Part shown: one piece after another, positions 1,224 to 37,346 of the stretch
How the letters are laid out: each line of letters begins with the position of its first letter
Numbering within the stretch: position 1 is the stretch's first letter
NCBI GenBank assembly: GCA_016215315.1
Contig: JACRKG010000045.1
Span: forward strand, 19,204 to 83,203
Reading direction: 5' to 3'
Length of the DNA stretch: 64,000 bases
Origin: Candidatus Woesearchaeota archaeon
GTDB taxonomy: Archaea > Nanobdellota > Nanobdellia > Woesearchaeales > ARS49
Program-made: the position numbers and the translations under genes
Notes under the pieces: model-generated
Database searches by the model: none
Told to the model about the DNA's origin: nothing
Seen by the model: only the letters and a program-made list of their open reading frames with translations

Positions 1224-1621
1224 AAGTTGTCATAACTTTAATTTCTTTTCTGAACCTTTTAGATTTTCCCCTGGTCGCCTGCAAATTAGTTCACGGTTCG
1301 CAGTTTATGGTTTACAGGACGCACTGCAAACTACGAACCATAAACTATGAACCTAAAGGCAGGCGGAACATAGACGCCGCGATAAAATACTGGGTATCTG
1401 AGGTATCATTTGATATCATAGACATTACTGGGTGTCGGGAGAATTGATAACAGAATAGTTTTAAAAGTGCACACTAAAAACTTATCTACTTTTTTATCAA
1501 CTGTTATTGTCGCCAAAACAATTAAAAAACTCAACATGCACATTCAGAAAGGCGACCTGAGCTAAGAAAATTTTCTTGAAATTTAATAAATTCTTTGAGA
1601 ATTTTAATATTATGGAGATTT

Positions 1622-4492: not shown

Positions 4493-4614
4493 GGGCCGGT
4501 AGCTCAGCCTGGTAGAGCACCTCACTTTTATCCTTCGGGAGGAAATGAGGTGGTCGCGAGTTCAAAACTTCATAACGCAAAAGTGCGTTTTGAGTGAACG
4601 TCTCGTCCGGCCCG
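4493..4614 (+). tRNA. tRNA-Lys(TTT) with two introns (14 nt at 37/38, about 34 nt in T-loop)
   Basis: Acceptor GGGCCGG/CCGGCCC, D-stem GCTC/GAGC, anticodon stem CCTCA/TGAGG enclosing CTTTTA+14 nt+A, T-stem GCGAG/CTCGT with TTCAAA-[34 nt]-T. Confidence 0.45.
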
Positions 4615-4635
4615 TCAACACTTAACAATCATAAA

Positions 4636-4878
4636 ATGACAGAAAAAAAGTTTGAAATCACCCAACATAGGTTAGTACCGAAACACTCAGTACTTTCCGA
4701 AAAAGAAGTAACTACTTTGTTAAAGAATTATTCTCTAAAAGATTTACCTAAAATGCATCTTACAGACCCAATAATAGAAACATTAAAAGCAAAAGAAGGG
4801 GATATAATAAGAATTGAAAGAAACAGTTTAACTGCAGGAAAAAGCGTTTTTTACAGGAGGGTTATTGCAAATGCTTGA
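4636..4878 (+). CDS. rpoH: DNA-directed RNA polymerase subunit H (Rpb5 homologue)
   Basis: HRLVPKHSVLSEKEV..LPKM..DPI....GDIIRIERNS.TAG...YRRVI; start moved to ATG 4636 because the 4594 ORF start overlaps the tRNA. Confidence 0.85.
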   Translation: MTEKKFEITQHRLVPKHSVLSEKEVTTLLKNYSLKDLPKMHLTDPIIETLKAKEGDIIRIERNSLTAGKSVFYRRVIANA

Positions 4879-6352
4879 TTATTCATACTTATTAATAAAA
4901 AAATATTTTGACGAAAACAGTTTAGTACAATCAGATATAGAATCATTCAATGCGTTCATAGATGTTGAAATGCAAAAAATCATCGAAGAAAGCAAAGATG
5001 TAGAACCAACAATCATTCCTCCAGATGTTGAAAGTTTCAAAATAAGACTTGATAAAGTGTGGGTTACAAAACCACAAATTACAGAAGCAGACGGAAGTAA
5101 AAGAGCAATTTTCCCAGTAGAAGCAAGACTTAGAAAAATAACATACTCAGCACCAATATATTTGGAAGTAAGCTCTCACATTAATGATGTTCAAAGAGAA
5201 AGTTTCACAACACAAATCGGAAGCTTACCAATAATGCTTCACAGTAAATACTGCCACCTACACGGCATGAACAAAGATCAATTAATAGAAAAAGGAGAAG
5301 ACCCTGACGAACAAGGAGGATATTTCATAATTAACGGAACAGAAAGAGTTCTAGTAACGATGGAAGACTTAGCATCAAACAATTTCATAGTAGAAAAATC
5401 AAATTCGGGAGTTAGCAAGTACTTAGGAAAATTATTCTCAGAAAGAGGACCATTCAAAATACCACATACAATTGAAAGATTAAAAAACGGAATTTATTAT
5501 GCATCATTTACGAGAGTAAAAAGAGCTCCATTAATAGTTCTATTAAAAGCATTAGGATTGCTAAAAGATGAAGAAATAATGAATTTAATCTCAAGAAAAA
5601 AACAATACGATGAAGTACTAATCAATTTATTTGAATACGTAGCAATAAAAACAGACGAAGATGCAATGGACTACTTAGCAAAACTTATTGGAATAACACA
5701 AACAAGAGAAATAAGATTACAAAGAATGCAAGAAATAGTTGACAAGTACTTACTACCTCACGTTGGAACTAATAAAGAAGACAGACTAGTCAAAGCACAT
5801 AATTTATGCAAACTATTAAGCAAATACATTACAGTATCAAGAGGAGAAGCACCACTAGACAACAAAGACCACTACATGAACAAAAGACTGAAAATGAGCG
5901 GAGACCTACTAGCAGACTTATTCAGAATGAACTTAAAAGTACTAATTGATGACATATTATACAACTTCCAAAGAATAGTTAAAAGAGGAAAATTCCCGTC
6001 AATAAAAGTAATTATTCGTGACAAATTATTAACATCAAGAATTTACAGTTCAATGGCTACAGGAAACTGGGTTGGAGGAAGAAAGGGAGTATCACAAAGA
6101 ATCCAAAGACATAATTACTTAGACACATTAAGCCACTTACAAAGAGTTTCATCACCATTATCAAACACACAAGAAAATTTTGCAGCAAGAGAACTACACC
6201 CAACACACATAGGAAGACTTTGTCCTAGCGAAACACCAGAAGGAGTAAACATCGGACTAAAGAAAAACCTAGCACTATTAACTAGTGTTACATCACAAAC
6301 ACACGATCCAATGAATATTTTGTTAAACGCAGGACTAAAACCAATAAAATAA
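4865..6352 (+). CDS. rpoB2: RNA polymerase subunit B'' (N-terminal part of split RpoB)
   Basis: Rpb2 N-terminal-domain-like sequence, position directly after rpoH. Confidence 0.9.
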   Translation: MQMLDYSYLLIKKYFDENSLVQSDIESFNAFIDVEMQKIIEESKDVEPTIIPPDVESFKIRLDKVWVTKPQITEADGSKRAIFPVEARLRKITYSAPIYLEVSSHINDVQRESFTTQIGSLPIMLHSKYCHLHGMNKDQLIEKGEDPDEQGGYFIINGTERVLVTMEDLASNNFIVEKSNSGVSKYLGKLFSERGPFKIPHTIERLKNGIYYASFTRVKRAPLIVLLKALGLLKDEEIMNLISRKKQYDEVLINLFEYVAIKTDEDAMDYLAKLIGITQTREIRLQRMQEIVDKYLLPHVGTNKEDRLVKAHNLCKLLSKYITVSRGEAPLDNKDHYMNKRLKMSGDLLADLFRMNLKVLIDDILYNFQRIVKRGKFPSIKVIIRDKLLTSRIYSSMATGNWVGGRKGVSQRIQRHNYLDTLSHLQRVSSPLSNTQENFAARELHPTHIGRLCPSETPEGVNIGLKKNLALLTSVTSQTHDPMNILLNAGLKPIK

Positions 6353-6356
6353 AAAA

Positions 6357-8159
6357 ATGACAGAAGTATACTTAGACGGAAGATATGTAGGCGATGTAGA
6401 CAATAAAGAAGACTTTGTTGAACACATAAAAGCAGAAAGAAGAAAAGGCGGAGCAGCAGAAGGAATTAATGTTCAATTAGACAAAATTTTAGACAGAGTA
6501 AACGTTTGCGCATCAAAAGGAAGAGCAAGAAGACCAGTAATTGTAGTAAAAAACGGCATTCCATTACTAACAGAAAAACACATAAAACAATTACACAAAA
6601 ACGAAATTTCCTGGCAAGACTTAGTAAACCAAGGAATAATAGAATACTTGGATGCAGCAGAAGAAGAAAATTCATTACTCGCATTCTATGAACAAGAATT
6701 AACACCAGAACACACACACTTAGAAGTAAGCCCACTAGTAATGTTAGGACTAATCGCATCACTAGTACCTTACGGAAACTTCACACAATCTGCAAGATTA
6801 AGCATTGGATCAAAAAACCAAAAACAAAGCATAGGAGTCTACGCTTCAAACTACTTAGTAAGAATGGACATGGACGTAAACTTACTACACACACCACACA
6901 AACCAATAATTAAAACAATAATTCACGATTTATCAAATTACGAAAGACATCCAGCAGGACAAAACGTAGTTGTAGCAGTAATGAGCTACAAAGGATACAA
7001 CATGGAAGACGCAATCCTAGTAAATAAAGGAAGCATAGAAAGAGGATTCGCAAGATCAAGCTATTACAGACCAGCAATCGCAGAAGAACTACGTTATTCA
7101 GGAGGACTAATGGATCAAGTATGCCCTCCAGACAAAGACGTTAAAGGATACAAAAGCGAAAAAGATTACAGATTCTTAGAAGATGACGGAATAATTTATC
7201 CAGAAGCACAAGTAAAAGAAGACGATGTAGTAATCGGAAAAACAAGCCCTCCAAGATTCTTAAGCTCACTAGACGAATACAGCTTAGCAAGCAACATAAG
7301 AAGAGAAAGCAGCGTAGCACTAAAACACGGAGAAGAAGGAGCAATAGACTTTGTAATGCTAACAGAAAACGAAGAAGGAAACAAACTAGTCCAAGTAAGA
7401 ATAAGAGACCAAAGAATTCCAGAAATAGGAGACAAATTCACATCAAGACACGGACAAAAAGGAGTAATAGGATTAATAGTTCCAGAAAGCGACATGCCAT
7501 TCACATCAAGAGGAATAATCCCAGATATAATGTTCAGCCCTCACGGAATCCCGAGCAGAATGACCGTTTCACAATTAATGGAATTATTAGGAGCAAAAAC
7601 AGGAGCACTAAGCGGACGTTACGTTGACTCAACAACATTCAACGCAGAACCAATGGAAAAAGTAAAACAAGAATTACTAAGCTTAGGATTCCGAGATGAC
7701 GGAGAAGAAATAATGTACAACGGAATCACAGGAGAAAGACTAACAGTAAGAATATTCATAGGAAGCATGTACTACCTAAAACTAAGACACATGGTCGCAA
7801 ACAAAATCCACGCAAGAGCAAGAGGACCAATACAATTACTAACAAGACAACCAACAGAAGGAAGAGCAAAAGAAGGAGGATTAAGATTAGGAGAAATGGA
7901 AAAAGACACCTTCGTAGCTCACGGAACATCATTATTACTAAAAGAAAGATTTGACAGCGACAAAACAATCGTTCCAATCTGCGAAAGCTGCGGAATGGTA
8001 GTAATCCACGACTATGTAAAAGACAAAAGATACTGCCCAGTTTGTGGAGAAAACGTAGACATCAACGACATCGAAATAAGCTACGCATTCAAACTAATGC
8101 TTGACGAATTCAAAACACTAGGATTATATCCAAAACTAACATTAGAAAACAAATATTAA
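6357..8159 (+). CDS. rpoB1: RNA polymerase subunit B' (C-terminal part of split RpoB)
   Basis: GDKF.SRHGQKGV, zinc-ribbon CxxC...CxxC at C-terminus. Confidence 0.9.
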   Translation: MTEVYLDGRYVGDVDNKEDFVEHIKAERRKGGAAEGINVQLDKILDRVNVCASKGRARRPVIVVKNGIPLLTEKHIKQLHKNEISWQDLVNQGIIEYLDAAEEENSLLAFYEQELTPEHTHLEVSPLVMLGLIASLVPYGNFTQSARLSIGSKNQKQSIGVYASNYLVRMDMDVNLLHTPHKPIIKTIIHDLSNYERHPAGQNVVVAVMSYKGYNMEDAILVNKGSIERGFARSSYYRPAIAEELRYSGGLMDQVCPPDKDVKGYKSEKDYRFLEDDGIIYPEAQVKEDDVVIGKTSPPRFLSSLDEYSLASNIRRESSVALKHGEEGAIDFVMLTENEEGNKLVQVRIRDQRIPEIGDKFTSRHGQKGVIGLIVPESDMPFTSRGIIPDIMFSPHGIPSRMTVSQLMELLGAKTGALSGRYVDSTTFNAEPMEKVKQELLSLGFRDDGEEIMYNGITGERLTVRIFIGSMYYLKLRHMVANKIHARARGPIQLLTRQPTEGRAKEGGLRLGEMEKDTFVAHGTSLLLKERFDSDKTIVPICESCGMVVIHDYVKDKRYCPVCGENVDINDIEISYAFKLMLDEFKTLGLYPKLTLENKY

Positions 8160-8192
8160 ACAAAATAATAAATAAAATACTAAAAAAATAAA

Positions 8193-10892
8193 ATGGCAAA
8201 AAAAGAAGAAATCACGGAAGAAGTAAAAGAAAAAACTGAAGAACTAAAAGAAAAAGAAGACGAAGTTCTAACTCCTGAAGAAAAAAACATACTTAAAGAA
8301 GCATTAAGCAGAGAAACAATAGAATCAACACAACAATACATAACTAAAAAAGTAAAAGGAGTAGTATTCGGAGTTCTATCACCAAAAATGATTAAGAAAA
8401 TGTCGACTGCTAAAATAGTAACTCCAGAATTATATGACAAAGAAGGATACCCAGTTGACGGCGGATTAATGGATATACGATTAGGAGTAATCGACCCAGG
8501 ACTAAAATGCAAAACTTGCGGATCAAAACTAAAAGAATGTATAGGACACTTCGGATACATAGAATTAGCAAGACCGGTATTCCACATCAAATTTGTAAGA
8601 CACATTTATGACGGCTTAAGATGCACTTGCAGAGAATGCGGCAGAATCTTAATGGCTGAAGACAAAATAAAAAAAACAATAAAAGAATACAAAAGAATAA
8701 AAGAAAAAGAAGGACTAGAAGCACTAAGACGCTTAACAAGATCAACAATCAGTCCACTAAAATCAGTGAGCAAATGTCCTCACTGTAAAGCAAAACAAGA
8801 AAAAATATTTTTAGTAAAACCATTAATGTTCAAAGAAGACGAGAAAAAACTAACATCAATACAAGTAAGAGCAAGACTTGAAAGAATACCTGACGAAGAC
8901 TCAGAAGTTTTAGGACTAAACCCAAAAGTAGTCAGACCAGAATGGACTGTGTTAACAGTACTACCAATACCACCAGTAACAGTAAGACCATCAATAACAC
9001 TAGAAAGCGGAGAAAGAAGCGAAGACGACCTAACACACAAATTAGGCGACATAGTAAGAATCAACCAAAGACTATTCGAAAACATCAACGCAGGAGCACC
9101 AGAAACAATCATAGAAGACCTATGGGACTTATTACAATACCACGTAACAACATTCTTTGACAACAACATACCACAACTACCTCCAGCAAGACACAGAGGA
9201 GGACAACCACTAAAAACAATCACGGAAAGAATCTCAAGCAAAGAAGGAAGAATAAGACACAACCTAGCAGGAAAAAGAACAAACTTCTGCGCAAGAACAG
9301 TAATCAGCCCAGACCCAATGTTAGGAATCAATTACGTAGGAGTGCCATTCATAGTAGCAATGAAAGTTACAGTTCCAGAAGTAGTAAACGAATGGAACAT
9401 GAATTACTTAAAAAAATTCGTCCAAACAGGACCAAAAGAATACCCTGGAGCAAACTACATAGTAAGACCTGACGGAAAAAAGAAAAAAGTAACAGAAGAA
9501 ACAAAAGAAGCAATGTTAGAAGAATTACAACCCGGATACAAAGTAGAAAGACACTTAATGGACGGAGACATAACAATCTTCAACAGACAACCAAGCTTAC
9601 ACAGAATGAGCATGATGTGCCACAAAGTAAAAGTATTACCATACAAAACACTAAGACTAAACCCGGTTGTTTGTGCTCCTTACAACGCAGACTTTGATGG
9701 AGACGAAATGAACTTACACGTCCCACAAACAGAAGAATCAAGAGCAGAAGCAGAAATATTAATGCAAGTACAAACACAAATAGTAAGCCCAGGATACGGA
9801 CTAAGTGTAATAGGATGCTTACAAGATGCAATATCAGGAAACTTTATACTAACAAGAGACTTAACATTAGAAAGAGAAAAAGCAGTAGAACTATTATGCG
9901 CAGTAGGAATAACAGACTTCAAAAAATTACCAAACAAAAAAACAATCACGGGAAAAGAAATATTCAGCATGCTATTACCAGACGACTTAGATTTCCAAGG
10001 AGCAAGCAAAGCAGGAGAACCAGTATTAATCGAAAAAGGAATACTAAAAGAAGGAGTAATGGACCAAAAAACAATCGGCGGAGAAGGAGAAGGACTCTTA
10101 CTAAGATCACTACACAAACAATACGGTCCAGACGCAACAATCGAAATCTTACAAAGAATACTAAGACTAGGAATAGAAGTATTACTACAAAGAGGATTCA
10201 CAGTAAGCTATTCAGAAACAGAATTACCACCAGAAACAGTTGAAGAAATAAACAAAACACTAAACGTAGCAGAAGAAGATGTACAAAAAGTAATCCAATC
10301 ATTCCACGACGGCTCACTAGAAACATTCCCAGGAAGAACACTAAAAGAAACACTAGAAATGAAAATAGTAGAAGTACTAAACAAAGCAAGAAACTTATGC
10401 GGAAGCATAATAAAGAAAACAATAAACAAAAAAACACACATCTCAATGATGGCAGAAAGCGGAGCAAGAGGAAACATACTAAACGTAGTACAAATGAGTG
10501 CCTGTGTAGGACAACAAGTACTTAGCGGTAGAAGAATAGAAAAAGGATTCAGCAAAAGAACACTAGCATGCTTCAAACAAGGAGACTTATCACCTGAAGC
10601 AAGAGGATTCGTAAGAAGCTCATTCAAAAAAGGACTAAACCCAAGAGAATTCTTCTTCCACTCAATCACTGGTAGAGACGGATTAATGGACACAGCACTA
10701 AGAACACCAAAATCAGGATACTTATACAGACGTCTCGCAAACGCAATGCAAGACCTAAAAGTAGAATACGACGGAAGCGTAAGAGATGCAGCTAACAGAA
10801 TAATACAGTTTTCATACGGAGAAGATGGACTAGACGTTTCAAAAACAGAAAGCGGAAAAATAAATATTAAAAAAATAATACAAATGGCTTAA
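8193..10892 (+). CDS. rpoA1: RNA polymerase subunit A'
   Basis: [10 protein letters not shown] catalytic motif, zinc-binding Cys clusters. Confidence 0.95.
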
Positions 10893-10893
10893 A

Positions 10894-12015
10894 ATGGTAC
10901 ACGCAGACTTAAAAGAATACATTGGAAAATTACCTAGTTCAATAATTCAAGAACTAGAAGAAACTTGCCCAGCATCAAAAATGAAGAAAGTAGCAAAACT
11001 AGTTCATGAAGAATTTGAAAACTCAAGAATATCACCTGGAGAAGCAGTAGGACTAATCAGTGCAGAAAGTATTGGAGAACCAGGAACACAAATGACGTTA
11101 AACACATTCCACTTTGCCGGAGTAGCTGAAATGAGCGTCACAAAAGGATTGCCTAGAATAATAGAAATCCTAGACGCAAGAAAAACCATTTCAACACCAA
11201 CAATGGAAATTTACTTACACGCTCCATACAACAAAGGAAAAGACATAAGAGAAATAGCAATGAGAATAAAAGAAACAAACATGGAATCAGTGGCAAAAGA
11301 TTTTGCCATCAATGTTGTCGACTTAAAAATGGAAACAACACTCGACGCAGAAAAACTAGAAAAACTAGAATTAAACTCCAAAAAAGTACAAAAAATATTA
11401 GAAAAAGCACTAGCAAAAGAAGCAAACGTAGAACTAAACGGAGACAAACTAGAAATTTCATTAAAAGGAAAAGAAAAAGACCTAAACCAATTATACAAAT
11501 TAAAAGAAGCAATCAAAGACGTATACGTTTGCGGAATAAAAGGAATAAAACAAGTACTACCCGTAAGAAGAAAAGAAGACTACATAATCATAACAGCAGG
11601 ATCAAACTTAAAAAAAGTATTCGAACTAGACTTTGTTGACTCATCAAGATCAACATCAAACGATATTCACGAAATAAAAAAAATATTAGGAATAGAAGCA
11701 GCAAGACAAGCAATAATTGACGAATTATTACAAGTTGTAGAAACACAAGGATTAAATGTAGACGTAAGACACTTAATGCTTGTCGCAGACACAATGTGCA
11801 TATCGGGAGACATAAAAGGAATAACAAGATACGGAGTAGTCAGTGAAAAAGCAAGTGTTCTAGCAAGAGCAAGCTTTGAAACACCAATAAAACACTTAAT
11901 AGAAGCATCAGTAATAGGGGAAATAGATTACTTAAACTCAGTAGTAGAAAACGTAATGCTAAACCAACCAGTACCATTAGGAACAGGAATGGTAAAATTA
12001 GTATCAAAAAAATAA
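10894..12015 (+). CDS. rpoA2: RNA polymerase subunit A''
   Basis: Rpb1 C-terminal region homologue, follows rpoA' with 1-nt gap. Confidence 0.9.
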
Positions 12016-12033
12016 ATACTTAAAAAAACAAAA

Positions 12034-12306
12034 ATGGCACAAACAACAGGACCGGAACTAAAAAAATTATCAGAAACAAAAAAACTAGTATTAGGCACAG
12101 AAAGAAACTTAAAACTAATCAAAAAAGGTTCAGAACTAAAAAAAGTAATAATCGCAAAAAACTGCAATCCACAAACAGTAAAATTAATAGAAAAATATTC
12201 TAAAATTCGCGGCCTAGAATTAGAAGTTTCGACGCTAACAAACGAAAAATTAGGAACTTTATGTAAAAAGCCATTCTTAGTCTCAGTTATTGGCATTACC
12301 CAGTGA
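12034..12306 (+). CDS. rpl30e: Ribosomal protein L30e
   Basis: Sequence and operon position typical of L30e. Confidence 0.85.
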   Translation: MAQTTGPELKKLSETKKLVLGTERNLKLIKKGSELKKVIIAKNCNPQTVKLIEKYSKIRGLELEVSTLTNEKLGTLCKKPFLVSVIGITQ

Positions 12307-12749
12307 ATTCTATGGTCAAGTATGATACTGAAGCAATTCAATTTATGAACTTCTTTGAGACATCAACTAAAGCTAAACTAAAAGACTGTTTCGAGTGGAA
12401 CACATTCCAAGTTTTTGTAGTAGAACAAGGAGAAATAGGAAAAGCAATAGGCAAAGGAGGACAAACAGTACTCCAACTACAAAAAAAACTAAAAAAGAAA
12501 ATAAAAATAGTAGAATACAGCCCAGAATTGAAAACATTTATAAATAATCTCGTATCCCCTTTGAAGTTAAAGAGCATAGAAGAGACAGAAAGCATCGTCA
12601 CATTAATACCCCAAGACAATCAAACAAGAGGTGTGTTAATCGGAAGAAACGCAATCTCTCTACGCGCGCTCGAACAAATAATTCAACGATATTTTAAAAT
12701 AAAAGAAGTAAAAATAGGAAAACCATGGGAAATAAATCAAGCGGACTAA
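12303..12749 (+). CDS. nusA: Archaeal NusA-like transcription factor (KH domains)
   Basis: Two KH motifs ([11 protein letters not shown] ; [15 protein letters not shown]), operon position. Confidence 0.8.
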
Positions 12750-13162
12750 ACGCAGGAAAAGCACTAAAAAGAAGAAGACACGTAAGCAAATTACTAAAAA
12801 AAGATTTTGTTAGAAGACTCTTCGAACTAAAAAGAAAAGCAGACCCACTAAGAGGATCATCACAAGCTAAAGGACTAGTTCTAGAAAAAATAGAATTAGA
12901 AGCAAAACAACCAAACAGCGCAAAAAGAAAATGCTGCAGAGTACAATTAATAAAAAACAACAAACAAATCACTGCATTCATGCCAGGCGATGGTGCACAA
13001 AAATTAATTGACGAACACGACGAAGTAATAGTAGAATGCATCGGCGGTCCAATGGGAAAAAGCAAAGGAGACATCCCAGGAGTAAGATGGCAAGTAATCA
13101 AAGTTAACGATCAAAGCTTACGAGACTTAAGAAGCGGAAAATTGGAGAAAGCAAGGAAATGA
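12725..13162 (+). CDS. rps12: Ribosomal protein S12 (uS12)
   Basis: [14 protein letters not shown]...TAFMPGDG motif. Confidence 0.9.
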
Positions 13163-13758
13163 GCGAAGTATTAGTATTCAACAAATGGAGTGCTCAAGGA
13201 GCAAAAGTAGTAGATCCGGGATTAATAGATTACATAAGTGTAAAACCAGTCTACGTACCAAAAACCGCAACAAGATATGCAGGCCACAGATTCAGAAAAT
13301 CAAAACTATTCATAGTAGAAAGATTAATCAACAAAGTAATGGTGCCAGGCCACAGAGCAAAAAAACACAGAAAAAGTTCAGGACACCAAACAGGAAAAGC
13401 AGTAAAGGCATACCAAATAGTAGAAAAAGCACTAATACTAATCGAACAAAGACTAAAAAAAAATCCAATAGAAGTAGTAGTTAAAGCAGTAGAAAACGGA
13501 GCACCAAGAGAAGAAATAGTAACAATAGAATACGGTGGAGCAAGATATCCAAAAGCAGTAGAATGCGCACCACAAAGAAGAATAGATATAGTACTAAAAT
13601 ACTTCATAAACAGTGCTTACGACAAATCATTCAAAAGCAAAAAAAGCATAGAAGAAAGCTTAGCAGAAGAAATAATTGCAGCATACAGGCTTGATCCAAA
13701 AAGTTTGGCAATTTCTAAAAAAAACGAAATGGAAAGACAAGCAGACGCAAGCAGATAA
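13159..13758 (+). CDS. rps7: Ribosomal protein S7 (uS7)
   Basis: S7 family sequence, operon position. Confidence 0.9.
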
Positions 13759-13800
13759 AACTAGTTCACAGTTTGTGGTCTACAGTTTACAGTAAAAAAG

Positions 13801-14007
13801 GTGATAAAAATTAAAAAAATATTCAATTGGATATCATTGGTGCTTTCTGCATATACAACTCTTGCTTTTTTAACATCCTTCTTTGTTCCAAGCATAAAAC
13901 TAACACCAATACCAGCACAATACTCAGCAGTACTACCAATATATCTAGGATTTGTATTAACATTTGCAGTATTGTTTAATGGAATTGCTGCAGTATTAAA
14001 AGAATAA
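13801..14007 (+). CDS. Small hydrophobic protein (2 predicted TM helices)
   Basis: 68-aa hydrophobic ORF; weak support. Confidence 0.3.
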   Translation: MIKIKKIFNWISLVLSAYTTLAFLTSFFVPSIKLTPIPAQYSAVLPIYLGFVLTFAVLFNGIAAVLKE

Positions 14008-14064
14008 TTCTTTCTTGAATTTGTTAAAAACTCTATTTTGTTTCTTATCTTACTTAAATTTTCT

Positions 14065-14183
14065 CAGTTTCAGTCGCCACGAAGAGTGTGCCAGTAGAGT
14101 TTCTTAATTATTCTAGCGACAAAGACAGTTGATAAAAAAGTAGAAAGAATTTTTTGAGTGCACGTGAATTACTTTTCAGTTAT
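14065..14183. repeat. Copy A of a repeated non-coding element (agtagagtttcttaat...gcgaca...ataaaaa...ttttgagtgcac...acttttcagttat)
   Basis: Aligns along about 120 nt with 37347-37470; ends in the 37-bp direct repeat 14147-14183. Confidence 0.6.
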
Positions 14184-14185
14184 AC

Positions 14186-14638
14186 TTAATCCTTGAACAA
14201 ATCTCTATATTTATCATCGAATTGGATGTAAATATTCTTTGCGTAGTTTATTTTAAGGTATGATTCCGCACTTGATTTTAATGCGTTGTCTAGTCTTTTA
14301 AAATAACCTTTCATTGTACTAAAAACGCTTAAAGCTTCAGCATAATTTTGACTTTGATTATTTACTTTAAAATCCAAGTTTAATGCAAGCTCTACGTGAT
14401 CTCTTAAACTATGAACTTTTTTGTTCATCGGAATACCTTCTTTTTTAATGACTTCATCAATCGAGTTCATTATCAAACAAAGTTCGCTTATTTCTTTACT
14501 TCCAGTTCCAACTTCTCTAACAATGCGTTTTGTTTCCGCTTTTTCTTTGACCTTTCTAATAGTGGTTTCAGCTTTACTTTTATTCAAAGCATCCATTTTA
14601 GAATTATCCCTTGGCGGAGTAGGACTAGACCATGGCAT
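14186..14638 (-). CDS. Hypothetical protein (150 aa) carried in a cassette flanked by 37-bp direct repeats
   Basis: ORF preceded by conserved leader with GAGGTG Shine-Dalgarno. Confidence 0.55.
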   Translation of the reverse strand: MPWSSPTPPRDNSKMDALNKSKAETTIRKVKEKAETKRIVREVGTGSKEISELCLIMNSIDEVIKKEGIPMNKKVHSLRDHVELALNLDFKVNNQSQNYAEALSVFSTMKGYFKRLDNALKSSAESYLKINYAKNIYIQFDDKYRDLFKD

Positions 14639-14641
14639 TAA

Positions 14642-14687
14642 ACCACCTCAACTCTCTTTAAGGGATTACAGTTAATAAATATTACTG
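14642..14687 (-). promoter_or_regulatory. Conserved promoter/5' leader (TATA-like ATATTTATTAA plus GAGGTG SD), copy 1
   Basis: About 44-nt near-identical copy at 25052-25094 in front of another minus-strand gene. Confidence 0.5.
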
Positions 14688-14790
14688 AATTTTTTGAGTG
14701 CACGTGAATTATTTTTCAGTTATCAATTTCTGCGCAGCAGAGTTAATGTTCCGGTTGAGAATGCAGAACAAAACTCAATAAGCACACAAA
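14687..14790. repeat. Copy C (3' part) of repeated element: T-run, GAGTGCAC box, TTTCTGCGCAGCAGAGTTAATGTTCCG
   Basis: Second copy of 37-bp direct repeat (14687-14723) followed by 28-nt block identical to 20798-20825. Confidence 0.6.
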
Positions 14791-14899
14791 TCAAGTAACC
14801 GGCTAAGAGAAAATTCAACTAAAATTGGCTTTATTTTTTAGAAATATTTATATACTTATAACTTTTTATTACTAATTAATAACTATTGAGGTGGTTTAA

Positions 14900-15187
14900 A
14901 TGCCTGAATTAATGTTTAGAAAAAAAATGATAAAAGCGCAGCATAGTCCTACTTTGAATACTGTTATGATGGTTGAAGAAGTCATAAGAACTGCTAAAGA
15001 AATTATTAGTGTTGCTGAATTAAAGAGAAAACTTCCTAAAAAAGTAAATCATTACACTTTAAAACTCATTCTTTCCTATTTACAACTTAGTGGAAAGATA
15101 GAATTTACTCCTAATGGCGTTCTCTGGATTTTCATGCCAAGAGAAGATCTTAAATTAATTATGAAAAAAGGCAGAACATGGACTTAA
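14900..15187 (+). CDS. Hypothetical small protein (95 aa)
   Basis: ORF with GAGGTG SD 8 nt upstream. Confidence 0.5.
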   Translation: MPELMFRKKMIKAQHSPTLNTVMMVEEVIRTAKEIISVAELKRKLPKKVNHYTLKLILSYLQLSGKIEFTPNGVLWIFMPREDLKLIMKKGRTWT

Positions 15188-20696: not shown

Positions 20697-20760
20697 GCGG
20701 ATTACCTGTTGAAACAAATTATATTGGCGGAAAATAAAATAATTTGAAAGATTTATTCTT

Positions 20761-20850
20761 TTTTTTAGTGTGCACTAATTAAATTTAATAATTATAAATT
20801 TCTGCGCAGCAGAGTTAATGTTCCGAACGCTTAGAGCAATAAAACTAAAG
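20761..20850. repeat. Copy D of repeated element (T-run, AGTGTGCAC box, TTTCTGCGCAGCAGAGTTAATGTTCCGAACGC)
   Basis: Same module architecture as 14687-14790 and 37440-37525. Confidence 0.6.
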
Positions 20851-20942
20851 CTGCACAATTAGTATGAGTTCTGTAAGGAGAAAATAAAAAAAGATGACAA
20901 GATTTAAATACTAGTAATTACTTATAATTACTGGTTATAACT

Positions 20943-23822: not shown

Positions 23823-24884
23823 TCACTTATTTTCTTTCACAGGTTCTTGTTTTACTGGTTGTTGAATTGTTTGTTCAGCATGTGCTTCATGCGTCTCAAA
23901 TATCTCATCATATTCATCTATTATCTCTCCTACTATTTCTTCAAGAACATCTTCTAAAGTTATTATTCCTGTGGCCTTTCCAAAGCTATCCAGTACAATA
24001 AATATGTGTGTTTTTTTTTGTCTAAATAAGTTTAAAATTTCATCGAGTTTGTTTGAGTCTTTTACAAAAATTGCATTTTTTCTCATTAATTTCCACACGG
24101 GCATTTTTCTTTCTGGTAAAACTGAGATTAAGTCTTTTGAATATAGTATTCCTACTACTTTGTCATTTATTTTGTCATAAACTGGAATTCTCGAGTGCGC
24201 TTGAGATCTTATTTCTTTGAGTAGATTGCTTTCTAGTACTGCATGTTTTTCTACAAAAAAAGTTTTTTTAATTGGCGTCATTGCTTCTTTAACGATTTTG
24301 TCTGAAAAAAGTAATCCTCTTTTCAGTATTTCGTATTCGTCTTGATCTATTTCTGGTTTTGGTAGTTTGTGATATTGTTCGTGAAATTTGTACTGTTGTT
24401 CAATAAATAGTCTTATTTCTTTTTTAGAATAAACCGAAGGTAATTCTCCGCCCAAAACTTTATCTAACACTAATGCAATGGGATAATTTAAAGGAAACAG
24501 AATCCAAATAAATATTTTGACTAACCAGATTAGTTTTGCACTGACTTTTAATGCATACTTAGCAAAAACTGCTTGAGGACCTATCTCACCAACTACAACT
24601 ATTAACAAAGTTGAGATAGCAACTGCAACAGGGCCTATGATTAACGAGCCTAAAAATATGGCAAGTGTTGAGTTGACAAGAACGTTGCCTAATAATAGCG
24701 TGCTTAACAATTGGTTTCCTTTTTTTCTTATAGGGTAAACTTTTATTGCTGCGGGATCACCCAAATCAACTTTTCTCTTCAAAATGAATGGGTTTAGGCT
24801 CATTATTCCTAGATTTAATCCAGAAAATAACGCAGAAAGAACTAATAAAAACAGAATAATTACATAAGAAAGTATTTGTTGCAT
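23823..24884 (-). CDS. corC: CNNM/CorC/HlyC-family transporter (DUF21 TM domain plus CBS pair)
   Basis: N-terminal 4 TM helices, CBS-like repeats, C-terminal acidic tail. Confidence 0.75.
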   Translation of the reverse strand: MQQILSYVIILFLLVLSALFSGLNLGIMSLNPFILKRKVDLGDPAAIKVYPIRKKGNQLLSTLLLGNVLVNSTLAIFLGSLIIGPVAVAISTLLIVVVGEIGPQAVFAKYALKVSAKLIWLVKIFIWILFPLNYPIALVLDKVLGGELPSVYSKKEIRLFIEQQYKFHEQYHKLPKPEIDQDEYEILKRGLLFSDKIVKEAMTPIKKTFFVEKHAVLESNLLKEIRSQAHSRIPVYDKINDKVVGILYSKDLISVLPERKMPVWKLMRKNAIFVKDSNKLDEILNLFRQKKTHIFIVLDSFGKATGIITLEDVLEEIVGEIIDEYDEIFETHEAHAEQTIQQPVKQEPVKENK

Positions 24885-24961
24885 TTATTGGTCACGTAAT
24901 TACACTAAAGAAACTCTTGCTTAAATACTTTGCTCTATTGATTTAAAAAGAAGGAAAAATC

Positions 24962-25045
24962 TTATTTCTTCTTCTTACATTTGCAATTTGACATTTCTTT
25001 GCCGCACTTTTCGCAAGCATTGCTACCACAACATGATCCGCACAT
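24962..25045 (-). CDS. Cys-rich micropeptide (27 aa: MCGSCCGSNACEKCGKEMSNCKCKKKK)
   Basis: GAGGTG SD 7 nt upstream; shares conserved promoter/leader with gene 14186-14638. Confidence 0.4.
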   Translation of the reverse strand: MCGSCCGSNACEKCGKEMSNCKCKKKK

Positions 25046-25051
25046 AATATT

Positions 25052-25094
25052 TCACCTCAATCTCCTTAAGAAATTCCAGTTAATAAATATTACT
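25052..25094 (-). promoter_or_regulatory. Conserved promoter/5' leader, copy 2
   Basis: Near-identical to 14642-14687. Confidence 0.5.
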
Positions 25095-25191
25095 AAAAAA
25101 GTTTGCAGTTTGTAGTTTACAACCTGCAGTAGGGGAAATTCATTTAGAACCATTGCACTGTAAACTGTGAACTGTAAACTGCCAACCAGTG

Positions 25192-26370
25192 CTAGAACTT
25201 TATATCAACACCTAAAACCGCATTCCAACCATCTTTTTCTCCTTTTACAACATTCTCTAATAGATCTTTTTTATTATGCTCCACTTTAAGTCTTAAGTCA
25301 ACATTTTTTCTCAATGGTTTGTTTATTTGTAGGCCTGCGTTATATCCTGTGTGGTTGAATGAAAGATCTGTATCGACATAATAAAATGGGCTTAGCTTAA
25401 AATTTCCCAATTTTAAATTATTAACTTGCCCTCCTCCACGGTAAGTTTCAACTTTTCCATCACCAATAAAATTAACTGGAGTTGCAAAACTTAACTCAAC
25501 GGGATTTTTTCCCAAAGCATCAACAATTGAGCTCATATTGTAAAAAGTTCCCTCAGGTGTCAAGTAAGCATTAACTATGGGGGGAGTTACTATAATATTT
25601 TTTAAATACATTCTTGTGGGTCTTTTAACTGTACTATGGCCATCAATCAAATAACCAAGAACTACTTCAATACTATCATAAGTTTGCATAGTTAAAGCAT
25701 CAGCAAGGAATGCTTGAGCAAAATAATCTCCCTCAGTTAAATTAATATTTTTTTCATTAAGAAAAAAAATATAGCTATCAGGGTCTCCACCTTCTTCTTC
25801 GCTTGGACCAGTTAAAATGTAAAAATCATCATACCATTTATTCATTAAGAAAGACAACCCATCATGCACGCTTAGTTGATCTAAATTGTTTCTAAAAGTC
25901 AAATAAGAACTATACTCATCTTGATTTAGGCCTGCAGTAGATGCGTCAAGAGATTGCTCTAGGTCTGGTTCATAACGGAATAGTTTTATAAAATTTTTAT
26001 TAAGATCAAAAGGAGAGTTCCAATGGTACGCAACAGTCATATCACCGTATCTTTTTGCCGCTCGAACATGCCCGAATTCATGACTTGCAAATTTTAAAAG
26101 ATGAGTTAATTCATTATCAGCAAGTAATGCTAAAGTTCTAGTGCCAAAATTATTCTTCCAATTTTTATACAAATAATCACTTCCTTTACCAACTACTTGG
26201 TCTGAAGAATACCAATCATTACTGTTTGCTTCGAAATTAGTTATGGGATTGTTAAAGTCTATTTTTAATTCTCTTTGAGGTGAATTGATAGTTTGAGCTT
26301 CAACACTTGAAGGAATAAAAAAAGAGGTAGCTAAAACTAAAGATCCGACTAGATTTTTTAATACCCCCAT
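25192..26370 (-). CDS. Secreted HExxH zinc-metallopeptidase-like protein
   Basis: N-terminal signal peptide; HEFGH motif. Confidence 0.5.
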   Translation of the reverse strand: MGVLKNLVGSLVLATSFFIPSSVEAQTINSPQRELKIDFNNPITNFEANSNDWYSSDQVVGKGSDYLYKNWKNNFGTRTLALLADNELTHLLKFASHEFGHVRAAKRYGDMTVAYHWNSPFDLNKNFIKLFRYEPDLEQSLDASTAGLNQDEYSSYLTFRNNLDQLSVHDGLSFLMNKWYDDFYILTGPSEEEGGDPDSYIFFLNEKNINLTEGDYFAQAFLADALTMQTYDSIEVVLGYLIDGHSTVKRPTRMYLKNIIVTPPIVNAYLTPEGTFYNMSSIVDALGKNPVELSFATPVNFIGDGKVETYRGGGQVNNLKLGNFKLSPFYYVDTDLSFNHTGYNAGLQINKPLRKNVDLRLKVEHNKKDLLENVVKGEKDGWNAVLGVDIKF

Positions 26371-26407: not shown

Positions 26408-27778
26408 TTGACCAAAGAAATTATTGAAATATTGAAGATAATTTTCATAAATAATTTAAATGTTCAGTTAATTCTCAGTTTAATGATTCAAATAGCTTCA
26501 GAGCAGCCAAAAACTTGCGGTAGCGAAGGTTCTGGACAATTATCTGCTTCAGCTCAAGAAGAATTAGAAAAACAAGCATACAGAATTGTTGGAAGACATA
26601 GTGCAGTAAAGACTTGCGGCTGGACTAAAAACATGATTCGCGGTGAAGGCGGCTGCTACAAATTAAAGTTCTACGGCATAATGAGTCATCAATGCATGCA
26701 AATGACAACAAGTATTAGTTGTGCTAATAGGTGTACTTTTTGTTGGAGGGGCTACAAAGCACCAGTAGCAAAAGAATGGAAGTGGGGTGTTGATGATCCA
26801 GAATTTATTCTAGAAAATAGCTTAGAAGCACATCACGACTTAATTGTTGGCTTTAAAGGAGGTAAAAAAACAAACGAAAAATTATTTGAAGGTTCTCAAG
26901 AAGTAAAACATGTAGCTCTTTCACTGACTGGAGAACCTATAACTTACCCAAGAATAAATGAATTACTAGATTTATTTAATCAAAAAGGAATTTCTACTTT
27001 TTTAGTAACAAATGCGCAATATCCTGAACAAATAAAAAATCTTAAACCAGTAACTCAGCTTTATGAAAGCCTAGATGCACCAAACAAGGAATTACTTAAA
27101 GAAATTGATAAACCATTATTTATTGATTTCTGGGAAAGAGCAAATCAAAGTCTTGATTATTTGAAAGAAAAAAAACAAAGAACTTGTATTCGATTGACGA
27201 TAATTAAAGGAGTTAATGATGTTGAGCCAGAAAATTATGCAAAACTAATACTGAAAGGAATGCCTGATTTCATTGAAGTAAAAGCATACATGTGGGTCGG
27301 AGCATCAAGAGAAAGACTAAACAAAGCAAACATGCCATTACACGAAGAAGTAATTGACTTCACGAAAAAATTAATTCAATACTTGCCAGATTATGACATA
27401 GTTTCAGAACACATTCCTTCAAGAGTAATAATGTGCGCTAAAAAGAAATTCTTCAAAAATGGAAGATGGCACACGTGGATTGATTTCCCAAAATATCACG
27501 AACTAGTAAATTCCGGAAAAGAATTTGTGACAGCTGATTATTTGAAACCCACACCAAGTACAGGACTTTCAGGCAAAGGAACTATCGATAGAAGAAAAGA
27601 ATGGGAAGAAATAAAGTTAGAAAAAAAAGAAAAACAAAATGAGGAAAAACAAAACAAAGAAAAAGAATCTCAAGAAGTTTACGTTAACGAAACAATGCCC
27701 GAACTAGATTTCTGGCAAAAAAAAGAAGAACAAACAACAGAACAAAATACAGAACAAAAACCGCCAGGTGGATGCTAA
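26408..27778 (+). CDS. taw1: tRNA 4-demethylwyosine synthase (Taw1/TYW1, radical SAM); true start possibly 26483
   Basis: KTCGWTKNMIRGEGGCYKLKFYGI.SHQCMQM....CANRCTFCWR; CxxxCxxC; K/E-rich C-terminal extension. Confidence 0.75.
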   Translation: MTKEIIEILKIIFINNLNVQLILSLMIQIASEQPKTCGSEGSGQLSASAQEELEKQAYRIVGRHSAVKTCGWTKNMIRGEGGCYKLKFYGIMSHQCMQMTTSISCANRCTFCWRGYKAPVAKEWKWGVDDPEFILENSLEAHHDLIVGFKGGKKTNEKLFEGSQEVKHVALSLTGEPITYPRINELLDLFNQKGISTFLVTNAQYPEQIKNLKPVTQLYESLDAPNKELLKEIDKPLFIDFWERANQSLDYLKEKKQRTCIRLTIIKGVNDVEPENYAKLILKGMPDFIEVKAYMWVGASRERLNKANMPLHEEVIDFTKKLIQYLPDYDIVSEHIPSRVIMCAKKKFFKNGRWHTWIDFPKYHELVNSGKEFVTADYLKPTPSTGLSGKGTIDRRKEWEEIKLEKKEKQNEEKQNKEKESQEVYVNETMPELDFWQKKEEQTTEQNTEQKPPGGC

Positions 27779-27813
27779 AAAGTTTGTAGTTTGGTGTTTA
27801 TGGTTTACGGGAA

Positions 27814-28245
27814 TTATTCTCCTTTTTTCTTCACAACGCTAACAAAACAACTAGGTACTTTTCCCATTTTGTCTTCTGAAAAAAGATCACACATTCTTGC
27901 TCCTGAACCATTAGGTATATTTGTGGGAAATTTAACTATGTCACCTACTTCAATTTGGTCTTCTAAAGCTAGTAACGGTTTCGCAATTCGAGTATCTTCT
28001 ATCATTTCTTCATATATGCTGAAAGTATAAATTCCTTGTTCTGTTTCAACTTTTAATGCATAACTCATCTCGCTGATACTTATTGGTTCTTTTCTAAAAA
28101 TTGAGTTAGGATCATGATTCAAAAGAGGCACAGAGCCTAGTTCTTTAACAACTTTTCCTTGCAAATAATTTGTTGGTCTAGAATAACATCCTCCAAATAA
28201 AATGGTTAATGCAGCGATACTTAGCACTTTGTTTAAAGTTCTCAT
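27814..28245 (-). CDS. Lipoprotein, paralog 1
   Basis: Signal peptide plus Cys (LFGGCYS); conserved LQGKVVKELGSVPLL ... VPSCFVSVVKKKGE. Confidence 0.5.
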   Translation of the reverse strand: MRTLNKVLSIAALTILFGGCYSRPTNYLQGKVVKELGSVPLLNHDPNSIFRKEPISISEMSYALKVETEQGIYTFSIYEEMIEDTRIAKPLLALEDQIEVGDIVKFPTNIPNGSGARMCDLFSEDKMGKVPSCFVSVVKKKGE

Positions 28246-34049: not shown

Positions 34050-34118
34050 ACTATAAACTCCAAACTATAAACCAAGAACATAAATTTATTTAAACTCTTA
34101 TTTTAGAAGTAATTCTAA

Positions 34119-37249: not shown

Positions 37250-37346
37250 GAAAAATACAAATAATTGATGGTTTATAAGTTTTGTTCAAGAAAAGATTTG
37301 TAGAAGAGAATGTGTTAATTCTCTTGATTCTAGTTTACAAAAAGTT

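What the first reader, a model, noticed from the sequence alone, without database searches (positions are those of the whole stretch)
14642..14687. Conserved promoter/leader driving two unrelated minus-strand genes, one a Cys-rich 27-aa micropeptide
A roughly 44-nt block (agtaatatttattaactg(t/g)aat(c/t)(c/t)cttaa(a/g)gag(a)(g/t)ttgaggtg on the minus strand) precedes both gene 14186-14638 and an unannotated 27-codon ORF at 24962-25045. The ORF encodes MCGSCCGSNACEKCGKEMSNCKCKKKK, which has 8 Cys and 6 Lys and looks like a metal-binding peptide. The block contains a TATA-like box and a GAGGTG Shine-Dalgarno at the proper spacing. Co-regulation by one promoter suggests a shared, possibly metal- or stress-related regulon.
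Basis: seen in the sequence. Interest (0 to 1): 0.5.

Follow-up and report, generated by a model that had tools for sequence, protein, structure and literature searches.

The report
Duplicated archaeal promoter before two small genes
A 46-base archaeal promoter plus ribosome-binding site that belongs to one small orphan gene was recently copied in front of a real 27-residue cysteine-rich peptide gene in this DPANN archaeon, which looks like promoter re-use and not a conserved metal regulon.

Summary
The repeat is real. Bases 14644-14689(-) and 25053-25097(-) match at 40 of 46 positions with one gap. That is the best of 3655 upstream-region pairs in the window and well above shuffled controls. 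The window comes from a Candidatus Woesearchaeota (DPANN archaeon) genome assembled from a metagenome. The block reads as a complete archaeal core promoter (BRE AGTAAT, TATA TTTATTAA, an A/T-rich stretch near -10, T/G at the predicted start) running straight into GAGGTG and the start codon. Orthologues of the 150-aa gene in related genomes keep the block, so it is native to that gene.

The 27-codon ORF is a real gene. A sister genome has it at the same position with all 7 Cys kept, 5 synonymous against 3 non-synonymous changes, its own ribosome-binding site and T-run terminators. There, however, a different promoter drives it. No third copy of the block occurs in the window or in about 80 kb of related DNA.

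The shared sequence is therefore best explained as a recent, lineage-specific promoter duplication, not a conserved regulon. It is probably metal-binding but matches no known family. The 150-aa gene with its promoter is bracketed by a 37-nt direct repeat inside a multi-copy structured intergenic element.

The parts
14644..14689 (-). Copy W1 of the block. It is a core promoter plus SD leader of the 150-aa gene: BRE AGTAAT 14681-14686, TATA TTTATTAA 14672-14679, A/T-rich CTTAAAG 14656-14662 (about -10), predicted TSS G at 14649 (T at -1), SD GAGGTG 14644-14649, ATG at 14636-14638.
   Evidence: Sequence; repeat statistics; conserved in orthologues L001, L002, L003 and L013, and partly in L004. 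Element positions fit the archaeal promoter geometry given in PMC5316973. The TSS is inferred, not measured.
25053..25097 (-). Copy W2 of the block, in front of the micropeptide ORF: BRE AGTAAT 25089-25094, TATA 25080-25087, CTTAAGG 25064-25070, SD GAGGTG 25053-25058, ATG 25043-25045. The spacer is 1 nt shorter than in W1.
   Evidence: It shares the derived 'aacTG' with W1, against 'aacCA' and 'aacTA' in L001 and L013. It is absent upstream of the orthologous ORF in L007.
14186..14638 (-). 150-aa orphan gene (NCBI locus tag HZA97_07670, hypothetical protein), predicted to be a helical bundle.
   Evidence: Only 5 homologues among 5.8 billion proteins. A profile search of 1.84 billion representatives adds nothing credible. 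No Pfam, NCBIfam, PHROG or PADLOC family. AF2 pLDDT 72.7 with five helices; only generic helical-bundle matches by fold.
24962..25045 (-). 27-codon ORF MCGSCCGSNACEKCGKEMSNCKCKKKK (7 Cys, 7 Lys). It is a real small gene, probably a metal-binding peptide.
   Evidence: Orthologue at L007 3840-3923 (GTG start): all Cys kept, same stop, 5 synonymous against 3 non-synonymous changes. No Pfam, NCBIfam or PDB family.
24945..24959 (-). Two T5 runs directly after the micropeptide stop codon, a likely archaeal terminator.
   Evidence: Sequence; the same feature is in L007. The function is inferred.
24920..24931 (-). Own promoter of the downstream CNNM/CorC-type transporter gene (aaagtatttaag; gene at 23823-24884).
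   Evidence: Conserved in L007, and present upstream of CNNM in L008 and L009, which lack the micropeptide.
14687..14723 (-). Direct repeat DR1 (37 nt), directly abutting the BRE of W1.
   Evidence: 36/37 identical to DR2, with 0 expected by chance.
14147..14183 (-). Direct repeat DR2 (37 nt), starting 2 nt after the stop codon of the 150-aa gene.
   Evidence: DR1 and DR2 bracket exactly promoter plus gene (503 nt).
14724..14835 (-). 5' half (A: hairpins 1 and 2) of a repeated structured intergenic element, interrupted by the cassette.
   Evidence: Collinear with the uninterrupted elements in L001 and at window 37329-37572.
14030..14146 (-). 3' half (B) of the same interrupted element.

Best explanation
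The block is a complete archaeal core promoter fused to a minimal Shine-Dalgarno leader. TFB and TBP would bind AGTAAT and TTTATTAA. RNA polymerase would start about 23 nt downstream of the TATA box, at the G of ttGAGGTG. The mRNA would then begin almost at the ribosome-binding site, giving a 5' UTR of about 11-13 nt. The module is native to the orphan 150-aa gene. In this genome's lineage one copy (promoter through SD, nothing more) was placed in front of a pre-existing micropeptide gene and replaced its older promoter. Both genes now probably share the same basal transcription and translation-initiation strength. This is recent promoter re-use, not an ancient co-regulated set. The micropeptide is an independent, terminated transcription unit, and it probably encodes a Cys-thiolate metal-binding (zinc-type) peptide. 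What is shown: the repeat, its conservation pattern, the conservation of the ORF and the promoter-like geometry. What is inferred: the TSS, the promoter activity, the direction and timing of the copy, and metal binding.
For: The repeat is far above chance and is the top upstream pair. The window is a Woesearchaeota MAG with an archaeal rpoH-rpoB2-rpoB1-rpoA1-rpoA2-L30e-nusA-S12-S7 cluster. The geometry fits published archaeal promoters: TATA centred near -27, BRE just upstream, an A/T-rich element at -10, pyrimidine at -1 and purine at +1 (PMC5316973). Other genes in the window use TATA plus 22-25 nt to the ATG (leaderless), or TATA plus about 22 nt to GAGGTG. Orthologues of the 150-aa gene keep the whole block at 91% protein identity (L001, L002, L003, L013). 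At 81% (L004) they keep BRE/TATA, the exact 23-nt spacer length and AGGTG, and at 53% (L012) only the SD. The micropeptide orthologue in L007 lies on the same contig as L001, about 11 kb from the 150-aa gene as in the window. It has TATA aaatttatatac plus 21 nt plus AGGTG, which cannot be aligned with the block. W2 scores 33 against W1 but only 29 against L001 and L013, and it shares W1's derived TG. ORF conservation: 7/7 Cys, 5 synonymous against 3 non-synonymous changes (one-sided binomial p about 0.03 at a neutral expectation of 1:3, my calculation). The CNNM gene keeps its own promoter with or without the micropeptide. There is no RNA structure (z between -0.4 and +0.8) and no shared dyad in the block.
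Against: No transcript data exist, so the TSS and promoter activity are inferred from geometry only. Only one sister genome carries the micropeptide, so loss of the block in that lineage cannot be formally excluded as an alternative to gain here. The rest of this genome could not be searched, so further copies may exist. At 46 nt the block is shorter than the 50-nt criterion used to define putative mobile promoters. A 5' UTR that begins at the SD is unusual and untested.
Confidence: 0.62

Rival explanations
1. The block holds an operator for a transcription factor, in the 22-nt stretch between TATA and the start site. The 150-aa gene and the micropeptide would then be co-regulated members of a metal or stress regulon.
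For: The spacer is more alike between W1 and W2 (17/22) than between W1 and its own orthologue in L004 (12/23). Archaeal repressors commonly bind between TATA and the TSS (general knowledge). The micropeptide sits next to a CNNM/CorC-type divalent-cation transporter gene.
Against: There are only two copies in 64 kb and none before other genes in about 80 kb of relatives. The orthologous micropeptide lacks the block. No dyad or direct-repeat operator is shared by both copies. The higher spacer identity is what a recent copy would show anyway. The 150-aa protein has no metal-related features.
Confidence: 0.12
2. The block is the outward-facing promoter end of a small mobile gene cassette. The cassette would recombine at a multi-copy structured intergenic element, and W2 would be a footprint or partial copy left by such an event.
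For: Promoter plus 150-aa gene (503 nt) is bracketed exactly by a 36/37-identical 37-nt direct repeat, which is a segment of an element that is uninterrupted in L001 and at 37329-37572. The gene sits in three different contexts in three relatives. L013 has a 16-nt repeat (AATAACAGAAAAATTC) abutting the BRE and again in the element downstream, and L004 has a 12-nt flanking repeat. W2 is preceded by an element-like 5' start, aatttcccctactgcagg. The element's TTTTATCAACTGT resembles the block's ATTTATTAACTGT at 11/13 positions.
Against: No recombinase or transposase lies nearby, and there are no PHROG or PADLOC hits. W2 carries only the promoter, has no flanking repeat and is not followed by the 150-aa gene. 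The 11/13 match is of borderline significance (my estimate, about 0.03). There are only two block copies.
Confidence: 0.15
3. The micropeptide ORF is a regulatory upstream ORF or leader peptide that controls the downstream CNNM transporter by attenuation at the T-runs.
For: A short Cys-rich ORF is followed by T-runs, 77 nt upstream of and on the same strand as a cation-transporter gene. The arrangement is conserved in L007.
Against: The CNNM gene has its own conserved BRE/TATA between the T-runs and its start. It keeps that promoter in L008 and L009, where no micropeptide exists. More distant CNNM loci also lack it. Amino-acid conservation, with synonymous changes, points to a functional peptide.
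Confidence: 0.06
4. The resemblance is chance or convergence of two strong consensus promoters and consensus ribosome-binding sites.
For: An exact 18-mer alone is not very rare in a 32% GC window, where 8 of 100 shuffles gave two or more approximate matches. GAGGTG and TTGAGGTG recur before several genes.
Against: The full 46-nt alignment exceeds all shuffles and all 3654 other upstream pairs. The genome's usual promoter is aaaGTTTTATAAA, not AGTAATATTTATTAA. The non-consensus spacer is shared.
Confidence: 0.03

Closest known systems
Putative mobile promoters / promoter propagation in prokaryotes (Matus-Garcia, Nijveen and van Passel 2012, PMC3488235)
   Same: Highly similar non-coding sequence lies immediately upstream of non-homologous genes within one genome. 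Neither the downstream nor the upstream genes are homologous. The similarity ends a few bases before the start codon.
   Different: The block is 46 nt, below that study's 50-nt alignment criterion. This is a family of two only. The promoter is of the archaeal BRE/TATA type in an uncultivated DPANN genome. One copy lies inside a repeated structured element and is flanked by a 37-nt direct repeat.
Canonical archaeal core promoter (BRE-TATA-PPE-Inr), as mapped in Thermococcus and Methanocaldococcus (PMC5316973, PMC2699501)
   Same: An 8-bp A/T TATA box, a purine/A-rich BRE directly upstream, an A/T-rich stretch near -10, and a pyrimidine-purine step at the predicted start. The spacing from TATA to the predicted start equals the spacing from TATA to ATG in this genome's leaderless genes.
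   Different: The TATA variant is TTTATTAA, against the genome's usual TTTATAAA. The predicted transcript starts at the SD itself. Nothing has been mapped experimentally.
Metallothioneins and small zinc-knuckle (CxxC) microproteins
   Same: The peptide is very small, 26% Cys, has no aromatic residues, and carries CxxC, CC and CxC motifs, including a CEKCGK knuckle like those of zinc fingers.
   Different: It matches no metallothionein or zinc-finger family. It is only 27 residues long, has a poly-Lys tail, and is known from two closely related genomes. Metal binding is untested.
Bacterial repeated intergenic elements that carry promoters (Correia/CREE, ERIC), cited in PMC3488235
   Same: A multi-copy, hairpin-forming intergenic element is associated with a promoter at its edge.
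   Different: The copies here are only 60-75% alike, with compensatory stem changes, which is unlike recent transposition bursts. The organism is an archaeon. No terminal target duplication typical of those elements was shown.

Membership tests
Archaeal core promoter (BRE/TATA) | 8-bp A/T-rich TATA box centred about 26-27 nt upstream of the transcription start | tested here: inconclusive
   TTTATTAA is present in both copies. Its distance to the T/G step before GAGGTG equals the TATA-to-ATG distance of leaderless genes in the window. The TSS itself has not been measured.
Archaeal core promoter (BRE/TATA) | Purine/A-rich BRE immediately upstream of TATA | tested here: met
   AGTAAT directly abuts the TATA box in W1, W2, L001 and L013, and L004 has GTAAC. 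The similarity between copies starts exactly here.
Archaeal core promoter (BRE/TATA) | Conservation of the element upstream of orthologous genes | tested here: met
   Kept in four contigs at 91% protein identity; the core is kept at 81%.
Archaeal core promoter (BRE/TATA) | Demonstrated TBP/TFB-dependent initiation | not testable with these tools
   This needs in vitro transcription or 5'-end RNA mapping.
Putative mobile promoter (PMP, PMC3488235) | Alignment of at least 50 nt at 80% identity or more between upstream regions | tested here: not met
   Identity is 87% (40/46), but the alignment is only 46 nt long; the criterion was read.
Putative mobile promoter (PMP, PMC3488235) | Downstream and upstream coding sequences not homologous | tested here: met
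   The downstream genes are a 150-aa helical protein and a 27-aa Cys peptide. The upstream neighbours are a 95-aa gene and a 392-aa gene.
Regulon / shared operator | The same site upstream of several genes and conserved at orthologous genes in related genomes | tested here: not met
   Two copies only, and the orthologous micropeptide lacks the site. A genome-wide count was not possible.
Regulon / shared operator | Recognisable dyad or repeat symmetry typical of a transcription-factor site | tested here: not met
   Only trivial AATATT and CTTAAG palindromes occur, and they are not shared at the same place in both copies.
Riboswitch / structured RNA leader | Conserved secondary structure, or a match to an Rfam family | tested here: not met
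   No Rfam hit. Folding z-scores lie between -0.4 and +0.8.
Metallothionein | Sequence membership in a described metallothionein family | tested here: not met
   No Pfam or NCBIfam hit at E up to 10, and no PDB relative.
Metallothionein | Small size, high Cys content, CxC/CxxC/CC motifs, no aromatic residues | tested here: met
   27 aa with 7 Cys (26%) in C2xxC5C6, C11xxC14 and C21xC23, and no F, W, Y or H.
Metallothionein | Formation of metal-thiolate clusters | not testable with these tools
   This needs metal titration or mass spectrometry of the peptide.
Leader peptide / transcription attenuator | The downstream gene depends on the leader's promoter and has none of its own | tested here: not met
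   A conserved BRE/TATA for CNNM lies between the T-runs and the ATG, and it is also present where the micropeptide is absent.

The most novel reading that the evidence does not exclude
Promoter-plus-ORF units such as the 150-aa gene may be cargo of an undescribed recombination process. That process would target one defined 37-nt segment of a multi-copy, covarying, about 250-nt structured intergenic element in these DPANN archaea, duplicating the segment on insertion. It would also spread a portable BRE/TATA/SD module to other genes, here to a previously unannotated metallothionein-like 27-aa peptide.
Probability: 0.1. Interest if true: 0.6.

Novelty: new member of a known kind. Interest (0 to 1): 0.3.

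Why it matters
Nothing is known experimentally about promoters in Woesearchaeota, which are uncultivated. This pair, together with its orthologues, gives a cleanly delimited and apparently self-sufficient promoter plus ribosome-binding module (BRE to SD, 46 nt). It also gives a dated example of promoter re-use in an archaeon. The work rescues a conserved 27-residue Cys-rich gene that gene callers miss. Finally, it warns that identical upstream sequences in one genome need a comparative check before they are read as a regulon. The practical importance is modest unless the cassette and element association proves general.

Tried and rejected
1. I scanned the GTDB species genomes for GTAAYATTTATTAASNNNAAYNNCTYAA. 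The only hit was one chance match in a Brumimicrobium MAG, so this genome and its relatives are not in that collection. The same pattern found nothing in IMG/VR.

2. I scanned metagenomes for the back-translated CGxCCGx3CxxCG motif. None of the 134 matches is a short M-C-G...K-tail ORF, so the result is inconclusive. A stricter peptide pattern found nothing in IMG/VR.

Exact look-up found none of the three peptide variants.

4. I tried to extend beyond the window through end genes. Two look-ups found no record, and one returned only a 4.9-kb Logan contig.

6. Rfam at permissive thresholds found nothing credible on the leader region or on the repeated element.

7. RNAalifold on a three-sequence MAFFT alignment of the element gave a poor alignment. 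I therefore relied on per-copy folds.

8. More distant CNNM loci (P0010, P0011) have no micropeptide.

9. A literature search found no described archaeal or DPANN metallothionein or matching micropeptide.

Full report
**Source of the window**

The window has 32% GC and carries an archaeal rpoH-rpoB2-rpoB1-rpoA1-rpoA2-L30e-nusA-S12-S7 cluster at 4594-13758(+). The 150-aa product of ORF 14186-14638(-) is identical to NCBI 'hypothetical protein HZA97_07670 [Candidatus Woesearchaeota archaeon]' on an 88.9-kb contig. The organism is therefore a DPANN archaeon, and promoters should be of the BRE/TATA type.

**The observation**

The 18-mer AGTAATATTTATTAACTG occurs exactly twice, at 14669-14686(-) and 25077-25094(-). 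A local alignment extends this to 40 identities in 46 columns with one gap, from TT(C/T)AGTAAT to TTGAGGTG. Four checks put the match above chance.
- Its score of 33 exceeds the maximum in 20 Markov-shuffled windows, which was 17-20.
- It is the best of 3655 pairwise comparisons of 60-nt upstream regions in the window. The runner-up scores 25, the mean is 9.05 and the sd is 2.35.
- Both copies end 5 or 7 nt before a start codon.
- The similarity starts sharply at the BRE-like hexamer and stops at the SD, and the flanks and coding sequences are unrelated.

The peptide has 7 Cys and 7 Lys.

**Anatomy of the block**

Putative genes in the window mostly carry (g)aaaGTTTTATAAA 22-25 nt before the ATG, which makes them leaderless. 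A subset instead has GAGGTG or GGAGGT 5-9 nt before the start. The block has these parts:
- AGTAAT (BRE-like)
- TTTATTAA (TATA)
- a 22-23-nt spacer with CTTAAAG centred about 10 nt before a T/G step
- GAGGTG

Published archaeal transcriptome maps place the TATA box near -27, the BRE just upstream, an A/T-rich proximal element at -10, and a pyrimidine at -1 followed by a purine at +1 (PMC5316973, read). Applied here, this predicts starts at about 14649 and 25058, the first G of GAGGTG. The 5' UTRs would be 11 and 13 nt.

The same 'TATA plus about 22 nt plus SD' layout occurs in two other places. One is before gene 45205-46113. The other is in the different promoter that drives the micropeptide orthologue in L007. 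The leader has no predicted RNA structure (z between -0.4 and +0.8), no Rfam match and no shared dyad. The whole block is therefore accounted for as a core promoter plus a minimal SD leader. This reading rests on geometry, not on transcript data.

**Comparative evidence for the 150-aa gene**

Only five homologues exist among 5.8 billion proteins. A profile search of 1.84 billion cluster representatives adds nothing credible. Conservation of the block falls off with protein distance.
- At 91% protein identity the whole block is kept (L001, L002, L003, L013).
- At 81% (L004) only GTAACATTTATTAA, an identically long 23-nt spacer and AGGTG remain.
- At 53% (L012) only the SD remains.

This is the decay expected of a functional promoter that belongs to this gene.

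The gene's neighbourhood differs among relatives. In the window and in L001 it lies next to S7, but in different arrangements. In L004 it lies between ArgRS and a radical-SAM gene. The protein is predicted to be a helical bundle with only generic fold matches and no family assignment.

**Comparative evidence for the micropeptide**

The ORF lies 77 nt upstream of a CNNM/CBS (HlyC/CorC-type) transporter gene. In the closest relative, contig JAIYRY010000001.1, the same position holds GTG-TGT-GGA-...-TAA, which encodes MCGSCCGSSTCEKCGKEMPNCKCKKKK (L007 3840-3923). That contig also carries the 150-aa gene with its block about 11 kb away, as in the window. Several features point to a real coding gene:
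- All seven Cys and the stop position are conserved.
- Of eight internal codon differences, five are synonymous. By my binomial estimate this gives p of about 0.03 against a neutral 1:3 expectation.
- Both versions have an SD at proper spacing.
- Both are followed by two T-runs.

Upstream of the L007 orthologue, however, the sequence is aaaatttatatacgagtaaggcgtaacttacttAGGTGatatttGTG, which cannot be aligned with the block.

Two other relatives, with CNNM at 73-77% identity, have no micropeptide but keep a CNNM promoter. More distant CNNM loci also lack the micropeptide. The micropeptide is therefore a real but narrowly distributed gene, it is transcribed independently of CNNM, and its association with the block is specific to this genome.

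**Direction and age of the copy**

W2 is closer to W1 (score 33) than to the L001 or L013 versions (score 29). W2 also shares W1's 'aacTG', where L013 and L004 have 'TA' and L001 has 'CA'. Together with the absence of the block before the L007 micropeptide, the most economical reading is a copy from W1 to W2 within the window's lineage. After the copy, W2 acquired three substitutions of its own and a 1-nt deletion. Loss in the L007 lineage cannot be formally excluded with one sister genome.

**The regulon idea**

The first does not apply, because the ORF is conserved. The second holds as far as it could be tested, since no third copy occurs in the window or in about 80 kb of related loci. The comparative result is stronger still, because the shared promoter is not conserved at the micropeptide. 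A genome-wide count was impossible, as the genome is absent from the searchable collections.

**Context that may explain how the promoter moves**

Promoter plus 150-aa gene (503 nt, from the first base of the BRE to 2 nt past the stop) is bracketed by a 37-nt direct repeat at 14687-14723 and 14147-14183. The two copies are 36/37 identical, with 0 expected by chance. The sequence upstream of DR1 and the sequence downstream of DR2 are together collinear with a single uninterrupted stretch in L001 and with window 37329-37572.

nhmmer finds at least four loci of this 250-320-nt element in the window (c1 split, c2, c3, c4) and copies in the relatives. Copies are only about 60-75% alike but keep three hairpins. 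The stems of those hairpins differ in sequence while remaining complementary. No Rfam family matches.

DR1 and DR2 are nearly identical, but they are only 76% identical to copy c2, so the duplication is recent. Three smaller observations fit the same picture.
- L013 shows a 16-nt repeat that abuts the BRE and recurs in the element downstream, and L004 has a 12-nt flanking repeat.
- W2 is preceded by an element-like 5' start and a heptamer-repeat hairpin.
- The element's TTTTATCAACTGT resembles the block's ATTTATTAACTGT at 11/13 positions, which is of borderline significance.

These observations suggest that rearrangements at these repeated elements move promoter-gene units. No recombinase is evident, and I rate this as a secondary hypothesis.

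**What the micropeptide may do**

It matches no Pfam, NCBIfam or PDB family. The only weak similarity is the CExCGK zinc-knuckle of C2H2 fingers. Its composition is 26% Cys in CxxC, CC and CxC motifs, with no aromatic residues and a KCKKKK tail. Its position beside a divalent-cation transporter gene adds to this, and together they make a metal-thiolate (zinc-type) peptide the most likely function. That is inference only. A leader-peptide role is unlikely, because CNNM has its own promoter.

**Comparison with what is known**

Functionally this is promoter propagation, or a 'putative mobile promoter' (PMC3488235): homologous promoter sequence before non-homologous genes. It fails that study's formal 50-nt length criterion and is a family of two. 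The promoter itself is a canonical archaeal type. Novelty is therefore low to moderate: a new example of known kinds. Three side results are worth keeping. The first is an unannotated but conserved micropeptide gene. The second is a compact TATA-to-SD design. The third is a multi-copy structured intergenic element that hosts the cassette.

Noticed in passing
window 37329-37572(-), 1257-1573(+), 20717-20890(-), 14030-14183 + 14687-14835(-); L001 10568-10836; L013 1816-1968: A repeated 250-320-nt intergenic element family. It has a conserved 5' (a)ttttcccct, three hairpins whose stems covary between copies, the motifs GGAACA, GAAATTGATAAC(A/T)GAAAA..GTGCAC and CTACTTTTTTATCAACTGT, and a terminal ..CTGA. 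At least 4 loci occur in 64 kb. It matches no Rfam family. It could be an ncRNA family or a MITE-like element.
   Followed up: partly
window 14147-14183 and 14687-14723; L013 1201-1216 and about 1923-1938; L004 about 9935-9946 and about 10476-10487: Short direct repeats bracket the promoter plus 150-aa gene unit in three genomes. They are 37 nt (36/37 identical) in the window, 16 nt in L013 and 12 nt in L004, and the gene sits in three different contexts. This suggests cassette-like relocation.
   Followed up: partly
window 1280-1352, 13755-13794, 25099-25188, 27773-27812, 34049-34079, 41577-41609 and others: Arrays of GTTTACA/GTTCACA-like heptamers lie just downstream of stop codons, often as sense plus antisense arrays that form long imperfect hairpins followed by T-runs. 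There are 9 loci against about 0.75 expected in shuffles. In element copy c4 such a hairpin is nested in the loop of hairpin 1. They may be terminator-associated.
   Followed up: partly
window 14886-14899(+) versus 14639-14652(-): The divergent 95-aa gene (14900-15187) has TTGAGGTGGTTTAA before its ATG. This is identical over 14 nt to the SD-to-start stretch of W1, so the two form an inverted repeat 233 nt apart around element half A, DR1 and the promoter. TTGAGGTG is partly generic in this genome, so the significance is uncertain.
   Followed up: no
window upstream regions, e.g. 45205-46113(-), 14186-14638(-), 24962-25045(-); L007 3790-3840: SD-led genes repeatedly show TATA plus 21-23 nt plus (G)AGGTG. 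This is the same distance that separates TATA from ATG in the leaderless genes, and it implies mRNAs that begin at the Shine-Dalgarno sequence.
   Followed up: partly
L004 9688-9819; L012 785-937: A 44-51-aa zinc-ribbon gene (CxRCG...WCxxCR, 64% identical between the two loci) lies next to the 150-aa gene in two relatives. It is absent from the window.
   Followed up: partly
L001 12826-15480(-) versus window 10894-12015(+): rpoA2 in the sister genome is 884 aa and carries an intein with a LAGLIDADG endonuclease. The window's rpoA2 is 373 aa and has no intein.
   Followed up: no
window 13801-14007(+): A 68-aa ORF with two hydrophobic segments lies between S7 and the element. It may be a small membrane protein.
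   Followed up: no
window 27814-28245 / 28249-28692(-) and 38156-38740 / 38742-39212(+): Two pairs of adjacent paralogous genes are 70-77% identical at the DNA level over stretches of 60-100 nt (repeat finder families D5, D6, D11, D14).
   Followed up: no
window 25192-26370(-): A 392-aa protein that looks secreted and has no family match lies between the wyosine radical-SAM gene and the micropeptide. It is absent at this position in the sister genome, so its arrival may coincide with the promoter replacement.
   Followed up: no
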